Assembly: GCA_965204755.1 (NCBI GenBank)
Contig: OZ242011.1
Location: 3,200,001 to 3,264,000, forward strand
Reading direction: 5' to 3'
DNA: 64,000 nt
Source: Candidatus Marinacidobacterium sp.
Lineage (GTDB): Bacteria > Acidobacteriota > Vicinamibacteria > Marinacidobacterales > Marinacidobacteraceae
The translations under genes and the position numbers were made by a program. Below the pieces are notes generated by a model, which made no database searches, had not been told where the DNA came from, and saw only the letters and a list, made by a program, of their open reading frames with translations. Of the stretch, positions 15,200 through 39,800 are shown one piece after another. Numbering within the stretch: the first letter of the stretch is position 1; each line of letters begins with the position of its first letter.

Positions 15200-15277
15200 G
15201 GGGTCGTAGTTCAGTTGGTTCAGAATGCCGGCCTGTCACGCCGGAGGTCGCGGGTTCGAGTCCCGTCGGCCCCGCCA
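15200..15277 (+). tRNA. tRNA-Asp(GTC)
   Basis: Acceptor stem GGGGTCG/CGGCCCC, anticodon GTC at 15235-15237, GGTTCGAGTCC T-arm, encoded CCA. Confidence 0.97.
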
Positions 15278-25083: not shown

Positions 25084-25092
25084 TGGTATAAT
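25084..25092 (+). promoter_or_regulatory. extended -10 promoter TGgTATAAT
   Basis: Consensus TATAAT at the end of an AT-rich patch, facing the TetR pair. Confidence 0.6.
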
Positions 25093-25221
25093 GGGCTACT
25101 TCCGCGAGCGCACGCGGCAAGTTTCTTCCCCGAGGGGGGAGAGACCTTCCTCTCTCCGGGCGCCGCGACCTCCATTCTACCTTCGGCCCGACCATCCCCG
25201 CAGTTTGTCCGGCTTGGCCCG

Positions 25222-25252
<31 letters not shown>

Positions 25253-25486
25253 ACGAGTCGGGCGTCGAGGGGAATGTCGAAATCGCCCTCGACCGGTTCG
25301 TCGGCTTCCCGGAAGTCCGTCCCTCCCGGACCGGGCCGGCCTGACCGGCGCCGAGACCGGCGCGACGCCGGCCGGCGAGCGCCCGCGTTCCTGGCGTCGG
25401 CCGGCGCCGTGACTTCGGATCGCCCCGCGGCGCCGGCGCCGGGCCCCGCCTTCGGCGACCGCGCTCCGACCGGAGGACTGCGACCG

Positions 25487-26131
25487 ATGCGGCGAAAGCA
25501 GCAGCGGGCCCTTTCGTCCCGGCGCGCCCTGTTCGAGGCCGCCTTGGACGAATTCGCCGATGTCGGGTTCGAAGGCGCCTCGACGCGGCGGATCGCCGAC
25601 CGGGCCGAGGTCAGCGTCGCCCTGATCCGGCACCACTTCGGCAGCAAGGAGGACCTTTGGAAGGCGACCGCGGAGGAAGTCTGCGGCGCTTTCGCCGCCC
25701 GGCTGGCCCGGCGGCGGGAGGGGCTCGCCGGCGTCGGCGACCGGACGCTCCTGCGGCTCCTGCTTCGCGAGTACCTCCGGTTCTTCGGCGAGAGGCCGCA
25801 GGCGGCGCGGTTCCTGGTCCAAGCGAACCATGCCCCCCGCGAGTTGCTCGAGTGGATGGTGGAGCGGTTCGTCGCGCCGGCCGACGGCTGGCACGCCGCG
25901 CTGCTCCGGCGAACGCAGAAGATCGGCTTCTTCCCTTCCGGCGACCTCTTCCTCCTGCGCTTCGTCTTTCTCGGCGCAGCGACTTCCCTGTTCAGTTTCG
26001 GCCCGACGATCTCGATCCTGTCCCGCCGGGACGCCCTCGACGACACCATGTTGGAACCCTTCGTGGAGATGGTGCTCAACATGTTCGTCGGCCCCCTCCC
26101 CACCGGCCCTCCGCGCGCCGGACTCGTCTGA
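25487..26131 (+). CDS. TetR/AcrR family regulator
   Basis: GFEGASTRRIADRAEVSVALIRHHFGSKEDLW; GGAGG SD. Confidence 0.92.
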   Translation: MRRKQQRALSSRRALFEAALDEFADVGFEGASTRRIADRAEVSVALIRHHFGSKEDLWKATAEEVCGAFAARLARRREGLAGVGDRTLLRLLLREYLRFFGERPQAARFLVQANHAPRELLEWMVERFVAPADGWHAALLRRTQKIGFFPSGDLFLLRFVFLGAATSLFSFGPTISILSRRDALDDTMLEPFVEMVLNMFVGPLPTGPPRAGLV

Positions 26132-26242
26132 CCTCGCGGCCCCCGCGCCGCAGCGGTCTGACGCGATTCCGGCGGCCGCGGCTCCTCCCGCTCTCGATTC
26201 GCCGCCGGCGACCGTGAGACGCCGACATACCCAGGACTTCCG

Positions 26243-27031
26243 ATGACCGACACCCAAGTCGAACGCGCCCCGGCTGCGCCGGCCCGCCGCCCGCCGCCCG
26301 CCGCCCGCGCCCGCCCGGCGGACGCTCCCGCCCCGCGGCGCGAACAGGAGCGAACGAAACGCACCAAGCGGGCGATCCTGGGATCGGCCCTGTCGGAATT
26401 CGCCCGCCACGGTTTCGAGGGCGCTTCGACCCGGCGCATCGCCGAGTCGGCGGGCATCACGCCCGCGCTCATCGGCCACCACTTCGGGGACAAGGAGGCT
26501 CTGTGGAAGGCGGTCGCCGCCGACACCTACGACCGCTTCCTCAAGCGGTTGGCGGGGAGGCACGCCGGCCTCGAGGGGGTGGACGACTGGAACTTCCTCC
26601 GGTTGATGCTCCGCGAGTACCTGCTGTTCTTCTCCGAGGAGCCGGACTTCTTCCGCTTCGTCTTCCACGCGAACCAGGGCGACCCCGACCGGCTCGACTG
26701 GCTGGTGGACACTTACATGGCCCCCTCCGGGCAGCGGTACATGGCCCTCCTCGGCCGGGCCCAGGCCGCCGGCTGGATCATCGAAGGCGACCTCTACAGT
26801 CTTCGCTACCTCTTTTGGGCGGCGGCCGGCTGGATGTTCGCCTGCGACGGTGGCTTCCGGCGGATCTCCGGCCGCGACCCCCGCGACCCCGCGTTCCTCG
26901 AAGAACATGTGGACCTGGTGCTGCGGCTCTTCCTCCGTCCGGGGGGGAGGGCGGCGGAGGGCCGCGAGGAAGCGGAACCGGCGGCGGCGCCCGCGCCGGC
27001 GCTGCCCGGACGACTCGCCACCAGGGGATAG
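26243..27031 (+). CDS. TetR/AcrR family regulator (paralogue)
   Basis: GFEGASTRRIAESAGITPALIGHHFGDKEALW. Confidence 0.92.
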   Translation: MTDTQVERAPAAPARRPPPAARARPADAPAPRREQERTKRTKRAILGSALSEFARHGFEGASTRRIAESAGITPALIGHHFGDKEALWKAVAADTYDRFLKRLAGRHAGLEGVDDWNFLRLMLREYLLFFSEEPDFFRFVFHANQGDPDRLDWLVDTYMAPSGQRYMALLGRAQAAGWIIEGDLYSLRYLFWAAAGWMFACDGGFRRISGRDPRDPAFLEEHVDLVLRLFLRPGGRAAEGREEAEPAAAPAPALPGRLATRG

Positions 27032-27226: not shown

Positions 27227-29449
<2,223 letters not shown>

Positions 29450-29508
29450 TTTTCTGTCTCTCGCGGTCGCTCGGTTGTCCCGCGGGGGCGCCGGGAGCGC
29501 CCGGGCCG

Positions 29509-30291
29509 CTACGCCGCCCGGAGGACGACCTCGAACCCGCAGGCGTCTTCCTCGACCACCGCGTCCGGCGCCGCGTCGGCCCGGAGGCCGACCCCGGCGG
29601 CTTCGAGGGCCGCCCGGTCGGCGTCCGGGTCGGCGGTTTCCAGGACGAGCGCCCGGAGACCCGCCGCTCCCGCGTCCGCGTCGCGGGGAGTCTCGAAGCG
29701 GAGGTCGCAGCCGTTCGGGAAGGGAACCAGCACGCCGCCGTCCGCCGGACGGGCCGCCGCGCCGAAGAGCGTCTCGAACCGTTCGCCGGCGGCCGCCGGG
29801 TCGGGGACCGCCGCCACCACCTCGGCGAGGCGCGTCACGGCCAGCAGCGGGCTCACCCGGCTCGGCGGCGGATCCGGCCAGTTCCAACTGCTCGCATGGG
29901 GCTGGATCAACTCGACCGTGAAGCCGGCGGCGTCCTCCGGGGCGACGAACGCCTCGAAGCCGTCCGCGGCGTGGAAGATGGTGTCCTCGAAGACCGGCGC
30001 CGACCGCTTCACCCGCTCCACCGCCCGCTCGATGTCGGAGACCTCGACGGCGATGTGTTCCAGCCCTTCGCCGACCGATCGCAGGTGCCGGCAGACCCGC
30101 GCCTCCGGGTTCCAGTTGTGAACCACATGGAGCCAGCACTCGTTCCCGAGGAGGACCCGCGAGTCGAGTTGGAACCCCCGCCCCTGGTCGGTGCGGAGTT
30201 CCGCCGGCGGAAGCCCGATCCGCCCGAGCCGCTCCGCCGCCGAAGCGTGCGACCGGTGCGCGGTCCCGATGTGCTGGAGCCGAAGGATCAT
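29509..30291 (-). CDS. VOC/glyoxalase family protein
   Basis: LQHIG, GEGLEHIAVEV.DI, GFTVELIQ. Confidence 0.8.
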   Translation of the reverse strand: MILRLQHIGTAHRSHASAAERLGRIGLPPAELRTDQGRGFQLDSRVLLGNECWLHVVHNWNPEARVCRHLRSVGEGLEHIAVEVSDIERAVERVKRSAPVFEDTIFHAADGFEAFVAPEDAAGFTVELIQPHASSWNWPDPPPSRVSPLLAVTRLAEVVAAVPDPAAAGERFETLFGAAARPADGGVLVPFPNGCDLRFETPRDADAGAAGLRALVLETADPDADRAALEAAGVGLRADAAPDAVVEEDACGFEVVLRAA

Positions 30292-31025
30292 CCGCGGCGC
30301 CTTCCCGATCTCAGCGCCGGAAGGTGGCGATAGTAGGGCGGTCCCCAGTCCTCATCCGGGTTGTCGAGCATGATCTCGACGAAGACCGGGACGAGGAACT
30401 CCATGATGCGAGCGCCGGTCGTGACGGTGTCGCGGTTGAGAGTACTGTTCCAAGTCGAGCCGCCGTGCACCAACTGGTTGCGCAGCGTGTAGAGACGCTC
30501 GAAGAGAGTCGTGAGTACGGGTTTGGTCCGCTGTTCTCCCAGACTCCGGAACACGCGGCGGTTGGCTCCGGCGAACCAATACTTCCACTTCGCGTTTCCG
30601 GGCTTCCCGTTGGCGTGATCCCAGAAGGGGCCGAACAGGTATTCACTGGAGAGCAGTACTCTGACGGGGCCGGAGTACTTCGCCCAAATCGCGTCGAAGA
30701 TCTTGCTGTCCCGGTCCGAGCGAAGAAGCCGGCCGAAGAACTTGGCGAACTCACGCCGCTCCGTAGGCTCCTTGCCACCGGCTTCCTGACGCTCCCGGTC
30801 GGGAGATTCCGCCGAGACATCCCGGGCGTAAGCAGCGTTGAAGGCGATCCAGTAGAGGATGAAGGCGACATCGTGATCCCCGGCGTCGCGCTCCTGCTCG
30901 GCTCGCCGCAGCCACCGGATGGCGCGGTAGGTGCGGAGAGCGAGCGGGCCGAACGCCTTCCCGCGTTCCCATCTGCTCTCGTGCTTTCGCTGCAGGCTCT
31001 CGGCGGTGGGCGCCTGATGAGTCAT
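30288..31025 (-). CDS. HEPN-domain protein, copy 4
   Basis: FILYWIAFNAAY...LYTLRNQLVHGGSTW (RxxxxH). Confidence 0.85.
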   Translation of the reverse strand: MTHQAPTAESLQRKHESRWERGKAFGPLALRTYRAIRWLRRAEQERDAGDHDVAFILYWIAFNAAYARDVSAESPDRERQEAGGKEPTERREFAKFFGRLLRSDRDSKIFDAIWAKYSGPVRVLLSSEYLFGPFWDHANGKPGNAKWKYWFAGANRRVFRSLGEQRTKPVLTTLFERLYTLRNQLVHGGSTWNSTLNRDTVTTGARIMEFLVPVFVEIMLDNPDEDWGPPYYRHLPALRSGRRRG

Positions 31026-31108
31026 CCCAAGAAATCTCTGCGCGCGCCAATTCTATGGCTTCTCCGCCGATTCCGGTGAGGAACGATGCCTCCCGCGACG
31101 CGGGCGGA

Positions 31109-31777
31109 TCAGCCCCGGGGCCGCCTCTGCTGCAGCCCGGGCCGATAGTAGGGGCGTCCCCAGTCCCCGCCCGGGTTGCGACGCGTAATCTCCACGAAGA
31201 CGGGGACCAGGGCCGCCATGAGGTGCGCGCCGTGACCTACGGAGTCCCGGTTGCGGTCACCGCCCCAAGTCGCCCCGCCGTGGACCAGTTGGTTGCGCAG
31301 CGTCTTGAGTCGTTGGAATACGAGGTCGAGGATCATCCCCGGCGCCGCGCGGTCGTCGATCCGTGAAAGCGCGTCGCGGACGCGCGCCGTCTCCCGATCG
31401 AACTTCTCCCTCCACCGGGCATTCCGTGACCTCCCATTCATGAAGAGCCAATAGGGCTCGTAGAGATACCGGTTCGCTACCAGAGCCTTGATACGGCCGG
31501 CGTTTTCTCGGATGGCGTTCTGGATGTCCCGGCTGCCGTCGGAATCCAAGAGGGTCTGAAAGTAGGCCCGTATCTCGTCGCGGGTCCGGGGAGCGTCGGA
31601 GGCGAAATCGGGCGAGACATCGGTAGCGAAGGCTGCGTTGAACGCGACCCAGTAGAGGATGAACGCCACATCCAGGTCGCCGGCCTCCCGTTCGCCGACG
31701 GCGCGCTTCAACCAAGCGTCCGCCCGGCGCATGCGTACCCGGAAGTGGTACGCCCGGTCGTCTCCTGCCGGGGACAT
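31109..31777 (-). CDS. HEPN-domain protein, copy 3
   Basis: FILYWVAFNAAF...LKTLRNQLVHGGATW. Confidence 0.85.
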   Translation of the reverse strand: MSPAGDDRAYHFRVRMRRADAWLKRAVGEREAGDLDVAFILYWVAFNAAFATDVSPDFASDAPRTRDEIRAYFQTLLDSDGSRDIQNAIRENAGRIKALVANRYLYEPYWLFMNGRSRNARWREKFDRETARVRDALSRIDDRAAPGMILDLVFQRLKTLRNQLVHGGATWGGDRNRDSVGHGAHLMAALVPVFVEITRRNPGGDWGRPYYRPGLQQRRPRG

Positions 31778-31863
31778 CGCGAAACTCGGGCCGGAGCGGG
31801 CGACTTAGGGGCCGATGTGCCCCCGTCGGGCGATCTCCCCGGCAAGCGCGGCCCTATCGACCG

Positions 31864-32544
31864 TCATTCCCGGAATCGTCCGCTCTTCAGGCCGGGTGGG
31901 TACATGGGCACGCCCCAGCACTTCTGCGGGTTGGCCCGCATGAGGTCCACGAGGATCGGGACGAGGCGATCCATGACCCGGGCGCTGTTGCGAACGGAGT
32001 CTCGGTTGAAGGAACTGCGCCAGCGCGCGCCGCCGTGGACGAGTTGGTTGCGGAGCGTGTAGAGGCGCCGGAAGAGGGTGATCAGGATTTTCTTGGTGTT
32101 CCGTTCCCGCAACTCGAATTCCAGTTGGCGCTGGACATCCGTGAACCGCGTCTTCCAGCGGCCGGTTCCGCGCTGCCCGTGCGTGGAGTCCCAGAACGGC
32201 CCGAACAGGTACTCGTTCGCGAAGAGGGAAGTGACCGTGTCTCGGAGGTCCCCCCACAGCGCTGCTTCGATGGCGCGGTCTTCGTCCAGGGACAGGAGTG
32301 TTTCGAGGTACTTCTCGAACGCGCCGCGCTCCGATAGCCTCTCGTCGGAGAAGTCCCGGGAGATGTCCCTCGCATAGGCCGCGTTGAAGGCGATCCAGTA
32401 GAGGAGGAAGGCCAAGTCGGGATCGTCCCCGTCCCGCGCCGTCTCGGCGCGTTCCATCCAGGTGTCGGCTCGGCGAAGGCGCACCGAGAAGGAGTGGAGC
32501 GGCTCGCCCCTCTGGGCGGGCGCTTCGCCAGAGTCCGAGATCAT
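31864..32544 (-). CDS. HEPN-domain protein, copy 2
   Basis: FLLYWIAFNAAY...LYTLRNQLVHGGARW; ATG 32544 overlaps the upstream stop. Confidence 0.85.
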   Translation of the reverse strand: MISDSGEAPAQRGEPLHSFSVRLRRADTWMERAETARDGDDPDLAFLLYWIAFNAAYARDISRDFSDERLSERGAFEKYLETLLSLDEDRAIEAALWGDLRDTVTSLFANEYLFGPFWDSTHGQRGTGRWKTRFTDVQRQLEFELRERNTKKILITLFRRLYTLRNQLVHGGARWRSSFNRDSVRNSARVMDRLVPILVDLMRANPQKCWGVPMYPPGLKSGRFRE

Positions 32545-33212
32545 TCCGGATTCATTTTCCCTTGAAGTCCGGGACGGTAATAGGGAATGCCCCACTGCTC
32601 CCCTCGGTGCTGCCGAATGATTCGGACGAAGGCCGGAACCAAGTGCGCCATGATGGGGAGGCCGTGTTCGACGGAACTACGGTTGTACCGACTCTTCCAA
32701 GTCGCGCCGCCGTGGACGATCTGGTTGCGTAGCGTGGCCAAGCGCTGGAACAACAGGGAAAGAAGCGTCTTGGCGCGGACCTTCGGGGCCCGGCGCGTGG
32801 CGTTTCTCACGCTGGCGAGTTGATCGTCGAACCGCTGCCGCCAGTTCTCGTTCCCCTTTCTGCCGTTTACGAAGTACCAATATCTCTTGAAGAGATACTT
32901 GTTGTTCAAGATCTCATGCATGGGACCGGTGAATTTCTCCAACGCGCGGACGATCTCACCGTTATCGTCGAAGCGCAGAACCTGCGCGAAGCACTTGTGA
33001 AATTCCCGGTGAGTATTCGGAGACTCCGAGTCGTCGGTCGCGAAGGCGGCGTTGAACGCAATCCAGTAGAGGACGAAGGCGACATCCCAGTGGCCCGAAG
33101 ACAGGTCGCCTGATTGGTGCGCCCTTCTGGCGCACGCGAGCCAAGATTCAGCGCGGCGGAGCCGCGTCTCGATGTTGCTGAAGTAGGACGAATCGTCGTA
33201 GTCGATCGTCAT
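32541..33212 (-). CDS. HEPN-domain protein, copy 1
   Basis: FVLYWIAFNAAF...LATLRNQIVHGGATW; real start ATG 33212 inside a long shadow ORF. Confidence 0.85.
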   Translation of the reverse strand: MTIDYDDSSYFSNIETRLRRAESWLACARRAHQSGDLSSGHWDVAFVLYWIAFNAAFATDDSESPNTHREFHKCFAQVLRFDDNGEIVRALEKFTGPMHEILNNKYLFKRYWYFVNGRKGNENWRQRFDDQLASVRNATRRAPKVRAKTLLSLLFQRLATLRNQIVHGGATWKSRYNRSSVEHGLPIMAHLVPAFVRIIRQHRGEQWGIPYYRPGLQGKMNPE

Positions 33213-33265
33213 GCGGACAGGCGAGGAGGTAGGGTGAGGCGAAGTCCGGCCGGAGGTGTCTGCCG

Positions 33266-35431
33266 CTACTCCACCCCCAAGTGGTGGAGGACGAAGGCCC
33301 AGCGGTCGGCTTCGAGTTCGATGCGCATGGAGACGGGCATTCCGCCGCCGTGGCCGGCGCTCTTCTGGACGCGCAGGAGGACCGGGTCGGCGCCGCCGCC
33401 GTGGACTTCCTGGAGACGGGCGGCGTACTTGAACGAGTGGCCCGGGGCCACCCGGTCGTCGTGGTCGGCGGTGGTCACCAGGGTAGGCGGGAAGTCGGGA
33501 CTGTCCTCGACATTGTGGTACGGGGAGTACGCGCGCAGGACGGGGAACATCTCCGGGTCGTCGGGGCTTCCGTAGTCGGAAGTCCACGCCCAGCCGATGG
33601 TGAAGCGGTGGAAGCGGAGCATGTCCATGACGCCCACGGCGGGGAGGGCGGCGCCGAACAGTTCGGGCCGCTGGTTGAGAACCGCGCCCACCAAGAGGCC
33701 GCCGTTCGAGCCGCCGGCGATGGCGAGCCGGTCGGGCTGCGTCACGGAGTCGTGGATCAGGAATTCGGCGGCGGCGATGAAGTCGTCGAACACATTCTGC
33801 TTGTTCTCGAGCATCCCGCCCCGGTGCCAGGGCTCCCCGTACTCGCCGCCGCCCCGCAGGTTGGCCTGGACATACACGCCGCCACGCTCCAGGAAGACGA
33901 GAGTCGAGGGGTTGAAGGAGGGGCGCAGGCTGATGTTGAAGCCGCCGTAGCCGTAGAGCAGCGTGGGGTTCTCCCCGTCGCGCTGCATGTCCTTCCGGTG
34001 GGTCAGGAACATCGGTACTTCGGTTCCGTCGTCGGAGGAGTAGAACACCTGGTTCGTCTCGTAGTCGTCGAAGTCGAACGGGGCGTCGGGCTCGTAGTGC
34101 GGGGAGACTTCTCCGCTTTCGAGGTCGTAGCGGTACACCGTCGGCGGGGCGAGGAACGACGAGAAGACGAAGTGGAGCGCGTCGTCCGATCTTCCGCCGG
34201 TCAACTGCGAGACCGAGCCGATGCCGGGAAGCGGCGCGTTCCGCTCGAAGGCGCCGTCGAGCGTATGGACGGCCAGCCGGCTCTTCGCGTCGTCGAGGTA
34301 GGCGAGCGCCAGCCGGTCGCCGACGATTCGCGCGCGTTCCAGCGTGTCCTCGTGTTCCGGGACCACTTCCAGCCAGTTCTCCGGCGCCGGCCGCGCGAGG
34401 TTCACGGCGACCACCCGGTAGCGGGGGGCGTCCCGGTCGGTGAGGAAGTAGAACCGGGGGCCGTCGTTCCCCAGGAACTCGTAGGACGCGTCGAACTCGT
34501 CCAGCAGCGGGACGACTTCGCCGGAGAGGTCCGGCGCGCTCCCGCCGCCGAGATCGAGCACTTGGATCCGCTTCCGTTCGTCGGTGCCCTCGCCGACCGT
34601 GAAGACCACATACCGTCCGTCGTCCGAGACTCGGGCGCCGACACCCCATTCCGGCCGGTCGGGCCGGGCGAACACCACCCGGTCGGAGTCCTGCGGCGTC
34701 CCCAACTCGTGGTACCAGACGGTCTGGTTCTCGGTGATTCCCCCCTGCGCGGCGTCCGGATCCGGTTCCGGGTACCGGCTGTAGAAGAACCCGGCGTTGT
34801 CGCGGGTCCACGAGGCGCCGGAGAACTTGATCCACTGCAGTCGGTCGTCGAGATTCCTCCCGCTCTCGACTTCCATCACCCGCAACTCCCGCCAGTCGGA
34901 GCCGGACTCACCGAGGGCATAGGCGAGCAGCGTCCCGTCCTCGGTGAAGGAGGTGGCGCCGAGGCTCACCGTTCCGTCCTCCGAGAGCGAGTTCGGGTCG
35001 AGCAGCGCCTCCCACTCCGCCTGCGGATCCCCGGGATCGCCGAGCCGGTAGAGCACATCCTGATCCTGCAGCCCGTCGTTCGCGCGGACGAACCAGTGCT
35101 CCCCGAACCGGAAGGGGGCGCTCCGCCGCGCGTAGTTCCACAGTTCCGTCAGCCGATCCCGCAGCGCGTCCCGGCCGGGAAGGGAGCGCAGGTGCTCGAA
35201 GGTGACCTCGTTCTGCGCGTCCACCCACTCCAGGACCTCGGGATCGTGGTCGTCTTCGAGCCACCGGTACGGATCCTCGACGGTGACCCCGTGCAGCGTC
35301 TCCGACACGGCCTCCCGGCGCGTGTCCGGGTAGTCGAACCCGCCCCCGCACGCCGCCAGGAGCGCCAGCGCCAGTCCCGGCGCCGCCGCGAGCGACGCGA
35401 GTTCGAGACCGATGGATCGCTTCGATTTCAT
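33266..35431 (-). CDS. prolyl oligopeptidase (S9A) lipoprotein
   Basis: LAAC lipobox, DPYRWLE, GYGGF, GGSNGGLL, DHDDRV, AGHG. Confidence 0.95.
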   Translation of the reverse strand: MKSKRSIGLELASLAAAPGLALALLAACGGGFDYPDTRREAVSETLHGVTVEDPYRWLEDDHDPEVLEWVDAQNEVTFEHLRSLPGRDALRDRLTELWNYARRSAPFRFGEHWFVRANDGLQDQDVLYRLGDPGDPQAEWEALLDPNSLSEDGTVSLGATSFTEDGTLLAYALGESGSDWRELRVMEVESGRNLDDRLQWIKFSGASWTRDNAGFFYSRYPEPDPDAAQGGITENQTVWYHELGTPQDSDRVVFARPDRPEWGVGARVSDDGRYVVFTVGEGTDERKRIQVLDLGGGSAPDLSGEVVPLLDEFDASYEFLGNDGPRFYFLTDRDAPRYRVVAVNLARPAPENWLEVVPEHEDTLERARIVGDRLALAYLDDAKSRLAVHTLDGAFERNAPLPGIGSVSQLTGGRSDDALHFVFSSFLAPPTVYRYDLESGEVSPHYEPDAPFDFDDYETNQVFYSSDDGTEVPMFLTHRKDMQRDGENPTLLYGYGGFNISLRPSFNPSTLVFLERGGVYVQANLRGGGEYGEPWHRGGMLENKQNVFDDFIAAAEFLIHDSVTQPDRLAIAGGSNGGLLVGAVLNQRPELFGAALPAVGVMDMLRFHRFTIGWAWTSDYGSPDDPEMFPVLRAYSPYHNVEDSPDFPPTLVTTADHDDRVAPGHSFKYAARLQEVHGGGADPVLLRVQKSAGHGGGMPVSMRIELEADRWAFVLHHLGVE

Positions 35432-35465
35432 GATTCCTCTTCCTCTCCCGGATCGGGCCGGGACC

Positions 35466-36797
35466 TCACCGCGCGCCGGGCCAGCGGAGAACGAGCACTT
35501 CTTCACGCAGTCGGTCTTTGGTGGCCGTCGCCGCGCGAGTGCGAAAGAGATCCGTCCGGACGACTTCGTAGCCCAGGGATTCCGCGACGATGCCGAGCAG
35601 TTCGCCGGTGCGGATCAGGACTCGGAAATAGGAGGCTTGGTCGCCGACGACATAGGCGAGGACGGCGCCCGGTTTGAGGACGCGGCGGAGCGCGGCGAAG
35701 TGGCGGGCCATGCCCCCGAAGTAGAGCAGGGTGACGCGGTGGTCGTTGCGCTCGAAGCCGGAGGTCTTGCCGAGTTCCGAGCGGCGCTCCTCGATGAGCC
35801 GGGCGACCTGCTGCACCGGTTCGATGCGCTCGATGAGTCGGTGGTCGTCGTCGGTCTTGTAGACGCTGCGCGTGTTGGAGCGGACGAGGGTCTTCTTCAG
35901 GCCGCGCAGTTCCTCCATGTTCCGGGCGAAGCCGAGCAGGACGGTCTCGAGCCGGGTCGTCCGCGAATAGTCCTTCTCGTTCGGGTACGGCGGGGAAGTG
36001 ATGACGAAGTCCACCGACTCGGGTTCGAGGCGCGCGGGATCGCGGGCGTCGGCGCGATGGACTCGGCCGGCGCCGGAGGAGCGGAGGCGGGAGACGCGGC
36101 GGAGGTCCTCGGCGATTCCGCGAACCCGCGACAGCCAGGAGTCCACGACCGGGGCGTCCTCCTTGAGGTGGCGAACGCCGACTTCCGGGCCGAAATGCAG
36201 GTTGCTGGCATCGTGGACGATCGTCGTCGCGAGCGCCAGCCGCTCATGCCGCGCCGGTTGGCCGGCGCCCGCGGCCTCCTCGTCGAGGGCTTCGAGCAGC
36301 GCGAGCGTCCGGTCGAGAGGACGGGGGCTGATGGAGTCCTTGATGAGCAGGCGTTGCGCGGCGTCGGGAAGCGTCCGCAGGGCGCGCCCGTTGCGCCGCG
36401 CTTCGAGCCGCGCGGCCCGGACCGCGACGCGCTGCGCGCGCCGGACGAGATCCTCCGGCGGCGGAGTCCAGTCGGTCTTGACGCTGCTGGCGAAGTGGGC
36501 CATCGGCATCGCTTCGAGGCCGACGGCGGAAACGCCGAGTTTGCGGCTTTCGACGAGCGTCGTCCCCGTTCCGCAGAACGGGTCCAGGACGACGCTGTCC
36601 TCGTTCGCGCCGAACTCCGAGAGGTACCGGCGGACGAGATGGGCCGGGAACGAGAGGACGAACCGGTACCAGCGGTGGACGGCCGTGTCCTCTTCTCGCA
36701 GCCGGTTGATCGAGGCGCGGGCGTCGGTCGGACCGGGAGCCGGGAGCGTCGGGAAGAGCGTCGGGGTCGGCGCCCGCCGGGCGGCGGTCGAGGGCAC
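35466..36797 (-). CDS. DNA methyltransferase, alpha order, SPPY (likely m4C)
   Basis: HRWYRF..SFP, VLDPFCGTGTT (motif I) preceding ITSPPY (motif IV). Start approximate. Confidence 0.85.
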   Translation of the reverse strand: MPSTAARRAPTPTLFPTLPAPGPTDARASINRLREEDTAVHRWYRFVLSFPAHLVRRYLSEFGANEDSVVLDPFCGTGTTLVESRKLGVSAVGLEAMPMAHFASSVKTDWTPPPEDLVRRAQRVAVRAARLEARRNGRALRTLPDAAQRLLIKDSISPRPLDRTLALLEALDEEAAGAGQPARHERLALATTIVHDASNLHFGPEVGVRHLKEDAPVVDSWLSRVRGIAEDLRRVSRLRSSGAGRVHRADARDPARLEPESVDFVITSPPYPNEKDYSRTTRLETVLLGFARNMEELRGLKKTLVRSNTRSVYKTDDDHRLIERIEPVQQVARLIEERRSELGKTSGFERNDHRVTLLYFGGMARHFAALRRVLKPGAVLAYVVGDQASYFRVLIRTGELLGIVAESLGYEVVRTDLFRTRAATATKDRLREEVLVLRWPGAR

Positions 36798-36814
36798 GCG
36801 GCTGCCGGGGGAGG

Positions 36815-39800
36815 TCAGCGGGCGGAGGCGCCCGGCGGGGGAGGGGTGTCCTGCGTCCAGAACGGTTCGTACGGCGGGCGTTCCACCGGCCAGATCTGCG
36901 CCATGGTGTTCGCGTCGAACAGTTCGCCGTTCCGCATCACGAACCGCACCGAGTTGGTGTTGCGGAGGTCTTCCAGCGGGTTCTCGTCGAGCACCTGGAG
37001 GTCGGCGAGTTTTCCGGGAGCGAGCGAGCCGAGATCCTCGGCGAGCCCGATGGCTTCGGCGCCGAAGAGGGTGGCGGCGATGAGGGTCTCGTGTTCGGAC
37101 AGCCCGCCGGAGCCCATCGCCCAGATCTCCCAGTGGGCGCCCAGCCCCTGGAGTTGGCCGTGGCTTCCGAGGGCGCATCGCCCGCCGGCGCGGATGACCC
37201 GCGTGCAGCCTTCGGCGATGCCGGCGTGGACATATTCCTCGGGGAGGAACCATTGGCCGCGCCGCCGCACCATGTTGTCCAGGATCGCGGCGGGGATGAA
37301 GCGCGCGAGTTTCTCGTCGCCGGCGACATCGGTGTTCTGGAAGTAGTAGTTCTCCGACCAGGGGCCGCCGTAGGCCACCAGGATCGTGGGCGTGTAGTAG
37401 GTCTTCGTCCGCGCCACATACTGCGCCACATCGTCGTAGATCGGGATGATCGGCAGGCTGTGTTCGTTGCCGGAGTACCCGTCGGCCATCTGCGTGAGGT
37501 CGAGTTTCAGGTCGAGCGCGCCTTCGGTCGTCGGCGTCAGCCGGTGCTTCGCCGAGGCGAGCGCCACCCATTGGCGGACGATCCGGTCGCCGACGACATA
37601 CTGCTTGACGGTCATCGAGTCGTAGGACTCGGCGTATCGCTTCAGGAAGAGGTCGGCGGCCTCTTCGTCGTAGACGCCCGACCGCGAGAAGATGCCCGGC
37701 CCGGTGGCGTAGATGCGCGGCGCGGTGATCCGTCCGATCTCCTGCAGGTCGCGGTAGGCGAAGACATCGGCGGTGGAAGTCTGCGGATCCCGAGTCGTGG
37801 TGACGCCGTAGGCGAGGTTCGCGAGGTGCTGGAAGACCTGCCGCTGGTGCACGCCGCGCGGCGCCCACATGTGCGCGTGGGCGTCCACATACCCCGGCAG
37901 CACGGTCTTGCCGGAGACATCGAAGACCCGGGCGCCTTCGGGCGCTTCGAGTACGGCGCCGACCGCGCGGATGCGGTTGTCTTCGACGAGCACATCGCCG
38001 CCGGCGATCACTTCCTCGCCCTCCATGGTGATGACCCGCGCGGCGTTTCGCAGCAGGATCGTCCCCTCGGGACGGGCGCGCGGCTCGGTTACCAGTGCGG
38101 TGAAGACCTCGCCGTCCGGCGCGGAACGGTGTTCGCCGTCTTCGCGCTCCTCTCCCTCGCCGCGCTCCGCGTCCTCGTCGCCGTCTTCATGCGCGGCTTC
38201 GTCCGCGTCCGCCGCGGCGGCGATGATGGAAGCGATCGGACGGCGGTGGATCCGGTTGCCGAGCGACCAGACCACGGCGTCCCCGGCGGCGCTCCACGAA
38301 AGGTGGCTTCCCCCCTCCGGCGCCGCCTCGCGCACCGGCGCCGGCGTTTCGCCGCCGCCGACCTCGATTTCCAGGGTCTTTCCGCCGGCGGCGGGCGTCT
38401 CGACCAGGTAGTGCCTGTTCTGCAACTCGAAGAACGCCCGGCTCCCGTCCGGGGAGAGGACGATCTGGCTGGCCGGCGGCGGGTTACGCCCGGCGCCGCG
38501 CCCGGTGACCTTCAGATGGGTTCGCCGGTCGGCGCCGTCGAGCCGCAGCGAGTAGAGCCCCTCGCGACCGGTCAGGTACACGCGGTCGGGTTCCGCCGCG
38601 AAATGCGGGAATCGGCCGCCCTCCGCCGGGCCGATCACCACCGGGTCGGCCGGCGCGCCGGACGCCGTAACGAGCAGGAGTTCGCTGAGTTCGGCCGGGC
38701 GCATACCGCCGATCTCTTCCTCCTCGCCGTAGAGGTCGGTGCGCCCGAACGCTGCCCGCAGGTAGGAGTAGAGATGCTCCTTGACCGGCGCCCGGCGGAC
38801 GACGATCCGGTCGCCGTCCGGCGTCCAGACCGGTTCGGCGTAGAACGCCGGCGTCTGCGTCCGGGCGGTTCCGCTGCCGCCGGCCGCGGGGACGGTCATC
38901 ACCTGGCCGCCGTCGCCCGACCAGGTCACATAGGCGACGGCGGCGCCGTCGGGTGACCAGGCGGGCATGAACTCGTCTTCGTCCGAGTCGGTGAGCCGCA
39001 CCGGCGCCCCGCCGGGCAACTCCATCCGGTAGAGGCGGCTGAACGCCGAGAACACCGCCGCGCTCCCGTCCGGCGAAATCCGCGGCCAGCGCACGATCCG
39101 CGCGGTTACCGCGTCGCCGTCGTCCACCCGGCGGGGGTAGTAGAGCCGGGGAGCGACTTCCGCCCGCACTTCCGCCCGGAACGGAATCTCGGTCATCGCT
39201 CCGGTGTCGAACTCGATGCGGAAGATCCCGCCGTTCACCGGCGCGATCAGCGCATCGCCCTCCGGCGTGAAGGCGTAACCGGGCATGGTGTCGCGGCTGG
39301 CGCGCGACTCCTGGTCGTCCCGGGTCACGCCGTTCACCAGCCATCTTTCCTCGCCGGACTCCAGGTCGCGTACGCGGAGCGCGGTGTTCGTCCGGTGCCG
39401 GGTGGCGTACGCCAAGTGGTTGCCGTCGGGGCTCAGCAGCGGGCGCATGGCGCTGCCCGGGGCGCTGGTGATCGTGGTCTCTTCGCCGGTCTTCCGGTCG
39501 AAACGCACGACCTGCCAGATGGGGAACTGCGCGTTGTAGTTGAAGGTTCCGCGCCGCTCCGAGAAATAGACGAACCGGCCGTCCGGGGAGGCGACCGCGC
39601 CCAGGCGATTCACCGGTTGCGGCCCGCCGCCGCCCGGAGTCGGCTCCGGCGGCGCGTCGCCGAGTCGGATGCCGGATCCCCCGTCCCGGTGGATCAGGAA
39701 GACCGAAGCGGTCCGCTCCGGCGGGCGCGAACGCGAGACCAGCAGGTAGTCCCCGTCCGCCGTCCAACTCGGGGAAACCATGAGTTGGGGGCGGTCCCGG

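What the first reader, a model, noticed from the sequence alone, without database searches (positions are those of the whole stretch)
30288..33212. Four tandem, diverged HEPN RNase paralogues with no antitoxin
Seen: four co-oriented genes of 222-245 aa share LYW(I/V)AFNAA, TLRNQ(L/I)VHGG..W and WG.P.Y. All keep the RxxxxH motif but differ widely elsewhere. Copy 1 couples to copy 2 and copy 4 to the VOC gene by ATGA overlaps; copy 4 also has its own TAGAAT at 31050-31055. No nucleotidyltransferase antitoxin, sensor or mobile gene is adjacent. Known: HEPN RNases form their active site at a dimer interface and often act in abortive infection. Inference: a diversified effector battery, with different triggers or combinatorial heterodimers. 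Best candidate here for an undescribed system.
Basis: partly seen in the sequence, partly recalled or inferred. Interest (0 to 1): 0.85.

Follow-up and report, generated by a model that had tools for sequence, protein, structure and literature searches.

The report
Tandem array of unnamed HEPN-fold genes
Four old, diverged copies of an unnamed HEPN-type (probable RNA-cutting) gene sit side by side in a variable slot between two core genes, and relatives carry one, seven or even fused copies, which makes this a natural series for how paired HEPN nucleases diversify.

Summary
Four co-oriented minus-strand genes (c1 32541-33212, c2 31864-32544, c3 31109-31777, c4 30288-31025) are 37-48% identical paralogues and all keep RNQ(L/I)VH. 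They belong to a large family (2314 clusters) that reaches no Pfam threshold and has no NCBIfam or family-level PADLOC match.

The family is nearly always single-copy. Arrays occur only in this genus (4 here, 7 in the sister genome), in a slot between prolyl oligopeptidase and a VOC gene upstream of groESL. In sister genomes that slot is empty or holds one copy, a NYN gene, or an integrase.

The copies are old and each has its own orthologues. They differ mainly in the insert, not the interface, and variants are mostly synonymous. Relatives carry natural two-domain fusions, which supports pairing of unlike copies.

RNase activity, defence role and transcription are untested.

The parts
32541..33212 (-). 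copy 1 (c1), 223 aa, HEPN-like, TLRNQIVHGG. This is the strain-variable copy.
   Evidence: alternative allele of its 5' two thirds in runs X6 and X10
31864..32544 (-). copy 2 (c2), 226 aa from the ATG that overlaps the c1 stop (ATGA); an alternative GTG start lies at 32595. Long-branch paralogue that keeps all family-invariant residues.
31109..31777 (-). copy 3 (c3), 222 aa. Used for the AlphaFold model and the dimer prediction; R161-N-Q-L-V-H166.
30288..31025 (-). copy 4 (c4), 245 aa. Its stop overlaps the VOC start (ATGA). Its relative in the sister genome is the N-terminal half of a fused two-domain protein.
31050..31055 (-). TAGAAT hexamer 25 nt upstream of the c4 start. A sequence match only.
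   Evidence: not listed by the promoter scan
29509..30291 (-). VOC/glyoxalase-fold gene, 260 aa. A core gene of the taxonomic family and the downstream border of the variable slot.
33266..35506 (-). prolyl oligopeptidase (Peptidase_S9_N + Peptidase_S9). A core gene and the upstream border of the variable slot.
29371..29399 (-). sigma-70-like site (TTGACA-17-TATCGT) before groES. The only promoter-like match in 28800-35700.

Best explanation
The four genes are old paralogues of an unnamed, widespread, normally single-copy, stand-alone family of the HEPN superfamily, about 220 aa long. The layout is helix 1, helix 2, a ~95-residue variable insert, helix 3 ending in the invariant RNxxxH, helix 4, and a WGxPYYP tail.

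Shown or computed: the fold, the motif, a predicted symmetric dimer that brings the two RNxxxH loops and the conserved helix-2 WxxFNAA face together, the expansion at this one slot, signs of purifying selection, and natural fusions of two unlike copies in relatives.

Inferred: the dimer forms a composite RNase site, as in other HEPN enzymes. The variable insert gates or aims that site, acting as an autoinhibitory or sensing element, so no separate antitoxin is needed. The genes are accessory conflict or defence cargo in a variable slot between two core genes. In this genus the gene was duplicated repeatedly, giving a set of subunits that share one interface but differ in the insert. These can act as homodimers and as mixed dimers with different triggers or targets. 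The most likely outcome is stress- or phage-triggered RNA cleavage with growth arrest.

For: Dimer. Score 0.62 (runs 0.62, 0.62, 0.72) against a best control of 0.00. Runs agree in at least 50% of contacts and partner pLDDT is at least 76. The interface is 14-25, 34-51, 104-114, 163-173 and 209-215.

Pairing of unlike copies. A 474-aa in-frame fusion exists in G001. Five fused orthologues of 474-493 aa exist, and other fusion layouts are P0209, P0217, P0130 and P0133. The fused model has pTM 0.82 despite a disordered linker.

Selection. Each copy has its own orthologue clade. Between paralogues, interface identity is 68-78% against 32-45% elsewhere, and the insert is only 25-37% identical. A 99.5%-identical strain contig shows 8 synonymous and 3 nonsynonymous differences in the four genes.

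Accessory or conflict context. The family was found in 8 of 41 relatives and 10 of 401 phylum genomes. The POP|VOC slot is empty, or holds 1, 4 or 7 copies, a NYN gene, an integrase or a HATPase_c_4 gene. In other phyla a WYL/WCX regulator lies within two genes in 12 of 79 loci. R-M, AbiEii-like, NOV_C and helicase genes are frequent neighbours.
Confidence: 0.55

Rival explanations
1. Housekeeping or stress-response RNA-processing enzymes. The genes are co-transcribed with prolyl oligopeptidase and VOC next to groESL, and trim or degrade cellular RNAs under stress, with no role in conflict with phages or mobile elements.
For: The genes share a strand with core genes, with short gaps, ATGA overlaps and no terminator-like site. 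The same slot is used in three genera. Many family members in other phyla have metabolic neighbours. The closest Pfam family, RiboL-PSP-HEPN, is linked to an endoribonuclease domain.
Against: Distribution is patchy: 8 of 41 relatives and 10 of 401 phylum genomes. Six sister genomes have POP and VOC abutting with nothing between, and others carry a NYN gene or an integrase there. One relative carries the gene in an island with an integrase and an IS3 transposase. WYL, R-M and Abi-type neighbours occur elsewhere.
Confidence: 0.15
2. Internal toxin-antidote set. One or more paralogues neutralise the others by forming inactive mixed dimers, so the array is a self-contained addiction or regulatory module rather than a battery of effectors.
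For: There is no separate antitoxin. The interface is conserved among copies, so mixed dimers are plausible. In fused relatives the second domain changes the residue after R (RKQLVH, RDRLVH, RGRLVH), which hints at asymmetric roles. c1 and c2 are translationally coupled.
Against: All four window copies keep R, N and H. The family is single-copy in 77 of the 79 other-genome loci counted, so it needs no paralogue partner. Each copy is conserved like an enzyme.
Confidence: 0.12
3. Non-catalytic HEPN-like binding proteins. They bind a nucleotide or ligand, as do the HEPN-like C-terminal domains of nucleotidyltransferases, and serve as adaptors or regulators.
Against: The published survey reports that the Rx4-6H motif is lost in the substrate-binding versions fused to nucleotidyltransferases. 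Here it is invariant in 40 of 40 members and sits at the predicted dimer interface.
Confidence: 0.08
4. Neutral remnants of repeated duplication or insertion at a recombination hot spot, with no function maintained.
For: GC3 is lower than in neighbours (0.77-0.86 against 0.89-0.96). Copy number turns over between genomes. c2 is on a long branch.
Against: All reading frames are intact and all invariant residues are kept. Orthologues are 78-97% identical, with the interface 89-100% conserved. Strain differences are 8 synonymous to 3 nonsynonymous.
Confidence: 0.04

Closest known systems
RiboL-PSP-HEPN (Pfam PF18735)
   Same: It is the closest Pfam model: 25 of 40 family members hit it over the helix-3 RNxxxH region. 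It is a bacterial HEPN family that keeps the motif.
   Different: All hits are below the 28.4-bit cut-off; the best seen were 18.6 bits and E 0.001. No fusion to an L-PSP domain and no ParB neighbour was seen. The long insert and the WGxPYYP tail are specific to this family.
ApeA (Apea-like HEPN; PDB 9hxl) and DARNA/PD-T7-3, single-gene HEPN defence proteins
   Same: They are single-gene HEPN proteins with no antitoxin. HEPN dimers form the active site, and in DARNA an inserted loop blocks it until activation (preprint 10.64898/2026.02.22.705581, passages read). There is a weak motif-level match to ApeA, E 0.9 over RLYxxRNxxxHGG.
   Different: Those proteins are about 55-60 kDa with a separate sensor domain. 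This family is about 25 kDa with only an insert inside the HEPN domain. No PADLOC model of them matches. No trigger is known here.
HepT-MntA (HEPN-MNT) toxin-antitoxin pairs
   Different: No MNT nucleotidyltransferase gene was found next to any copy, here or among the neighbours scanned in other genomes.
Cas13 and other proteins with two HEPN domains in one chain
   Same: Fused relatives (474-493 aa) carry two unlike HEPN domains in one chain, predicted to pack together (pTM 0.82). Cas13 likewise uses two HEPN domains (PMC6559982 and PMC12165695, search listing and abstracts only).
   Different: There is no guide RNA, no other Cas-like domain and no sequence relationship. The window copies are separate genes.
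PaREP1/8 HEPN genes in tandem repeats (archaea)
   Same: A HEPN family recorded as occurring in operons with tandem repeats of the gene (PMC3710099 Table 1 passage).
   Different: That family lacks the R of the motif and is archaeal. Here R, N and H are invariant and the genes are bacterial.

Membership tests
HEPN superfamily | Core of four helices in an up-down bundle | tested here: met
HEPN superfamily | Rx4-6H motif in the C-terminal part of helix 3, with a polar residue (N, D or H) after R | tested here: met
   R161-N-Q-L-V-H166 lies at the end of helix 145-166. R, N and H are invariant in 40 of 40 members. Definition from PMC3710099 passages.
HEPN superfamily | [quoted passage not shown] | tested here: met
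   Residues about 51-144 form the insert. Paralogue identity there is 25-37%, against 49-60% in the core. It is longer than the inserts of 'up to 60' residues quoted.
HEPN superfamily | Dimer that forms a composite active site from two motifs | tested here: met
   In silico only. Homodimer score 0.62, best of 3 controls 0.00, at least 50% contact agreement, partner pLDDT at least 76. Residues 163-173 of both copies are at the interface. The pass may reflect likeness to solved HEPN dimers.
HEPN superfamily | Metal-independent endoribonuclease activity | not testable with these tools
   Needs purified protein and RNA substrates.
Pfam HEPN_RiboL-PSP (PF18735) | Score at or above the gathering cut-off (28.4 bits) | tested here: not met
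   Window copies score 13.4-15.8 bits, with no hit for c3. 25 of 40 members hit it, all sub-threshold, best E 0.001.
ApeA defence protein | Match to the HEPN_Apea or PADLOC ApeA model, plus a large N-terminal domain | tested here: not met
   HEPN_Apea gives sub-threshold hits in 2 of 40 members. No PADLOC ApeA hit. PDB 9hxl matches at E 0.9 over 29 residues. The proteins are 222-245 aa with no extra domain.
HEPN-MNT (HepT/MntA) toxin-antitoxin | Adjacent minimal nucleotidyltransferase antitoxin gene | tested here: not met
   No NTase domain was found in the window neighbours or in the 95 neighbours scanned from other genomes.
Csm6/Csx1 CRISPR ancillary RNases | CARF (or SAVED) sensor domain fused to HEPN | tested here: not met
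   Only the HEPN part of the CARF_HEPN and Csx1 models is matched weakly (best E 2e-4, 18 of 40 members). There is no room for a CARF domain in 222 aa.

The most novel reading that the evidence does not exclude
The locus and its relatives preserve, within one gene family, every step from a homodimeric stand-alone HEPN nuclease to separate unlike subunits (arrays of 4 and 7) and on to covalently fused two-HEPN enzymes. The array works as a combinatorial immune repertoire: subunits share one interface but carry different inserts, and mix into heterodimers with distinct triggers or RNA targets. One copy (c1) is swapped between strains.
Probability: 0.3. Interest if true: 0.8.

Novelty: new variant of a known kind. 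Interest (0 to 1): 0.6.

Why it matters
HEPN RNases are among the commonest effectors in prokaryotic immunity and toxin systems. How they acquire new triggers, and how two-HEPN enzymes such as Cas13 arose from dimeric ancestors, is known mostly by inference.

This family is large (at least 2314 clusters at 50% identity) yet reaches no Pfam threshold and has no NCBIfam or family-level PADLOC match. It needs no partner gene. It offers single copies, arrays of unlike copies and several independent fusions, all in close relatives.

That makes two questions directly testable with a few expression constructs: how subunits pair, and what the insert does. If the WYL-linked members protect against phages, this would add a compact single-gene defence family.

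Tried and rejected
- Foldseek against the PDB gave no match at E <= 0.001; the fold assignment rests on VIA-align.
- NCBIfam gave no hit. PHROGs gave no hit better than E 0.0079.
- PADLOC gave only weak HEPN-part hits to CARF_HEPN and Csx1 models.
- The profile search of PDB sequences gave only ApeA at E 0.9 and one chance hit.
- The ESM Atlas does not hold c3. Its homologue P0074 falls among unnamed clusters, and the nearest named cluster (HEPN_RiboL-PSP, 0.75) is only a lead.
- The metagenome-contig scan found 7 distant loci and no close orthologue DNA, so a proper orthologue dN/dS could not be computed.
- NG86 on paralogue pairs is saturated: dS 0.5-1.6, dN/dS 0.3-0.9.
- No RNA holder is listed for the stretch, so expression is untested.
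- The listing of cluster members could not be run because the database was switched off, so source names and accessions of family members were not obtained.
- Earlier findings of this scan returned nothing by place or by sequence.
- Rfam found nothing in the array; the only hit in the window is a tRNA at 15200-15274.
- I considered VOC as a dedicated partner or antitoxin and rejected it. It is present in 22 of 24 family genomes, with or without the HEPN gene.
- I considered the short (268-346 bp) POP|VOC gaps in G019, G002, G018 and G023 as HEPN remnants. No convincing similarity was found (best E 0.03-0.06).
- Literature searches found no description of this family or of such arrays. They cover only the held library.
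Full report
**1. What is there**

Four minus-strand ORFs occupy 30288-33212.
- c1 is 32541-33212, 223 aa.
- c2 is 31864-32544, 226 aa from the ATG that overlaps the c1 stop. A GTG at 32595 would give 243 aa.
- c3 is 31109-31777, 222 aa.
- c4 is 30288-31025, 245 aa.

They are 37-48% identical to c1, with 58 invariant columns. These include LYW(I/V)AFNAA, TLRNQ(L/I)VHGG..W and WG.P.Y. A profile of the four finds only these four places in the 3.98-Mb genome, at E 1e-108 to 1e-111.

Upstream on the same strand is a prolyl oligopeptidase (POP, 33266-35506). Downstream are a VOC/glyoxalase-fold gene (29509-30291, with an ATGA overlap with c4), then groES and groEL. The consensus scan lists only one promoter-like site in 28800-35700, before groES, and no terminator-like site. 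Co-transcription from POP to VOC is therefore plausible but unproven.

The wider window is housekeeping: Mnh antiporter, ilvD, panE, rhodanese, TetR regulators and a TolB-like amidohydrolase. It has no mobile or known defence gene except a DNA methylase domain upstream of POP.

**2. What family it is**

- No copy reaches a Pfam threshold. Three of the four give sub-threshold HEPN_RiboL-PSP hits at 13-16 bits against a cut-off of 28.4.
- NCBIfam has nothing.
- PADLOC gives only weak hits to the HEPN part of the Csx1 and CARF_HEPN models.
- Across 40 aligned family members, 25 give sub-threshold RiboL-PSP-HEPN hits, 2 hit HEPN_Apea and 1 hits HEPN. 18 of 40 give weak CARF_HEPN hits, best E 2e-4.
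- PHROGs has nothing.

The family is nevertheless large. A profile search of 1.84 billion representatives found 2314 clusters at E <= 1e-3, 1584 at <= 1e-10 and 544 at <= 1e-30, nearly all 200-260 aa. These fall in Dehalococcoidia, Sphingomonadales, Rhodobacterales, Acidobacteriota, Binatia and others. Sources mostly call them hypothetical; one calls a member 'Apea-like HEPN' and one 'HEPN domain-containing'.

**3. Fold**

The AlphaFold model of c3, built from a 40-row alignment, has pLDDT 85.7 and pTM 0.84. Its long helices are 8-31, 35-50, 145-166 and 177-200, and a helical insert lies between the second and third. RNQLVH (161-166) ends helix 145-166.

- Csm6 8jbc, 7.7
- AbiV 9bj5, 7.7
- 2hsb, 7.7
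- 1wol, 7.6
- 8xdj, 7.2
- sacsin 3o10, 7.1
- Csm6 6tug, 6.0

1ufb, 8oz7, 1ylm, 5yep and 2jpu also appear; I take these to be HEPN from recall or. The related C-terminal domains of nucleotidyltransferases also match (3c18, 3jyy, 4ebj).

**4. Dimer**

A homodimer of c3 scored 0.62 (three runs: 0.62, 0.62, 0.72) against 0.00 for the best of three controls. Runs agree in at least 50% of contacts, and partner pLDDT is at least 76. The symmetric interface consists of helix 1 (14-25), helix 2 (34-51, the WxxFNAA face), 104-114, the motif loop 163-173 (QLVHGGATW) and 209-215.

These are the family-invariant positions. This is the arrangement expected of a composite HEPN site. It remains a model, and it may pass by likeness to solved HEPN dimers.

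**5. How unusual the array is**

- Among 41 relatives, 8 have the family. The same-genus genome G001 has 7 tandem copies, and the others have 1 copy or a fragment.
- In a sample of 401 genomes of the phylum, 10 have it. All have one copy except one genome with two dispersed copies and the window's genome with four.
- Among the 79 best loci from other species-representative genomes, 77 have one copy. One (L096, titled Acidimicrobiales) has two in tandem, and one (L056) is split in two pieces.
- Equal contig lengths suggest several further metagenome contigs with 2-3 paralogues (for example P0010, P0022 and P0024). This is an inference from the listing only.

**6. The slot**

In G001 the seven copies lie between POP and VOC-groESL, as they do here. 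I located VOC in family genomes (found in 22 of 24) and examined 20 loci, leaving out L135, which is only 1307 bases. Together with G000 and G001 this gives 22 genomes.

Sixteen of the 22 have the order POP-VOC-groES-groEL. In those sixteen, the space between POP and VOC is as follows:
- At most about 25 bp in 6 genomes: G014, G021, G024, G022, G011, G007.
- 268-346 bp in 4 genomes (G019, G002, G018, G023), with no convincing similarity to the family.
- A NYN-domain gene in G008.
- A phage-type integrase in G017.
- A HATPase_c_4 ORF in G005.
- One HEPN copy in G016.
- Four HEPN copies here.
- Seven HEPN copies in G001.

G006 has POP-HEPN-groESL, with VOC elsewhere in the genome. In G014 the family gene lies elsewhere, between a phage-type integrase and an IS3 transposase.

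So the gene is accessory cargo and the POP|VOC junction is a variable slot. VOC is a core neighbour, not a dedicated partner.

**7. History and selection**

The tree has 77 rows and was built by the quick method, so support is SH-aLRT only. Each window copy has its own clade of metagenome orthologues:
- c1 groups with P0018 (85% identical) and P0022, support 96.
- c3 groups with P0006-P0010 (78-87% identical), support 99.
- c4 groups with P0042 (97% identical), support 97. G001_c5 is sister to this pair, support 88.
- c2 is an orphan on a long branch.

Most G001 copies do not pair with window copies. The copies are therefore old, and they turn over by gene birth and death.

Identity between paralogues is 68-78% at the predicted interface and 32-45% elsewhere. 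It is 49-60% in the core and 25-37% in the insert. Orthologue pairs show 89-100% identity at the interface and 60-99% elsewhere.

A strain contig from run X4 is 99.5% identical over 29897-33400. It has 18 differences, all of them listed in the output. Eleven lie in the four genes: 8 synonymous and 3 nonsynonymous, each scored as a single step. Random change would be roughly three-quarters nonsynonymous (general knowledge, not computed here).

NG86 dN/dS between paralogues is 0.3-0.9, but dS is saturated and is biased by the high GC3. GC3 of the copies is 0.77-0.86, against 0.89-0.96 in the neighbours. Taken together, the copies are under constraint and are not decaying.

**8. Pairing of unlike copies**

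In G001 two adjacent copies form one 474-aa reading frame. It consists of a c4-like domain with RNQLAH, a low-complexity linker, and a second domain with RKQLIH.

Five fused orthologues of 474-493 aa exist on other contigs, with linkers of different length. Other layouts also occur:
- A full domain followed by a domain without most of the insert: P0209, P0217 and P0130.
- An insert-poor domain followed by a full domain: P0133.

The fused protein is modelled with pTM 0.82 although its linker (220-248) is disordered. This implies confident packing of the two halves, but I could not inspect the contacts.

They do not show that the four window copies mix.

**9. Context elsewhere**

There is no universal neighbour. 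The largest neighbour cluster has 12 proteins in 12 of 79 loci, 7 of them directly upstream on the same strand. I scanned five of its members and all five hit WYL and/or WCX. For that scan I sent 95 of the 155 adjacent ORFs, leaving out the short ones and near-duplicates.

Other neighbours include HsdM, type ISP restriction enzymes, an AbiEii-like AAA_21 ATPase, NOV_C, UvrD/PD-(D/E)XK, SNF2 with ADP-ribosylglycohydrolase, and SbcD-like proteins. Many loci, mostly Dehalococcoidia and Acidobacteriota, have ordinary metabolic neighbours instead. Seven IMG/VR contigs carry the family.

This mixed picture fits a mobile conflict gene but does not prove defence.

**10. Verdict**

The genes are members of a new, unnamed family within the HEPN superfamily. 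Here the family has expanded in place into an array of old, constrained paralogues that share a dimer interface and differ in the insert.

The most likely mechanism has three parts: a motif-dependent RNase site formed by dimers, gating or aiming by the insert, and homo- and heterodimer variety supplied by the array. This mechanism is inferred. Activity, trigger, targets and transcription are all untested; no RNA run holds the stretch.

My searches of the held papers found no description of this family or array.

Noticed in passing
window 32736-33264 (5' two thirds of c1): Contigs of runs X10 and X6 replace this stretch with an equally long sequence (529 bases against 528) that is under 85% alike. 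Its motif region matches c3 (31622-31687) better than c1. X6 holds both alleles, at depths 10.9 and 97.9. c2-c4 differ by only a few percent in the same contig. c1 therefore looks like a strain-variable cassette, or the product of recombination between paralogues.
   Followed up: partly
L014 6086-8398 (-) in G001; protein P0225: The last HEPN copy and the VOC gene form one open frame with a proline-rich linker in G001. A 534-aa metagenome protein has the same layout, with Glyoxalase domains at 271-440. In the window the two genes only overlap by ATGA. This may be a real fusion or a lost stop codon.
   Followed up: partly
window about 35466-36870 (-): A DNA methylase gene (N6_N4_Mtase) lies between the TolB-like amidohydrolase and POP, in this genome and in G001 (73% identical). 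tblastn did not find it at that place in the other family genomes whose fetched stretch reached the TolB-like gene. G006 has a 28%-identical methylase-like match just downstream of groEL. No restriction partner was seen.
   Followed up: partly
L118 6615-7241 (-), L124 2137-3495 (+), L133 6382-7599 (+): In sister genomes the same POP|VOC slot holds a NYN-domain gene (G008), a phage-type integrase followed by about 1.3 kb without a clear gene (G017), or a HATPase_c_4 ORF (G005).
   Followed up: yes
proteins P0129 and P0157; locus L062: P0129 (813 aa) joins a family domain to an acyl-CoA dehydrogenase, and in L062 an acyl-CoA dehydrogenase is the next gene. P0157 (528 aa) has an unrecognised N-terminal part of about 320 residues before the family domain, with no Pfam hit.
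   Followed up: no
window 25091-27031 (+); L014 251-2579: Two adjacent TetR-family genes lie upstream of groEL here. G001 shows three tandem TetR-like matches at the same place, so this is another small tandem family beside the array.
   Followed up: no
L105-L111 (IMG/VR contigs): Seven viral or proviral contigs encode family members, 35-41% identical to c3. I did not examine their positions within the phage genomes.
   Followed up: no
L096 5168-6618 (+): The only other tandem pair among the 79 best loci from other genomes is in a genome titled Acidimicrobiales. It lies directly upstream of a 1429-aa type ISP restriction-modification enzyme.
   Followed up: no
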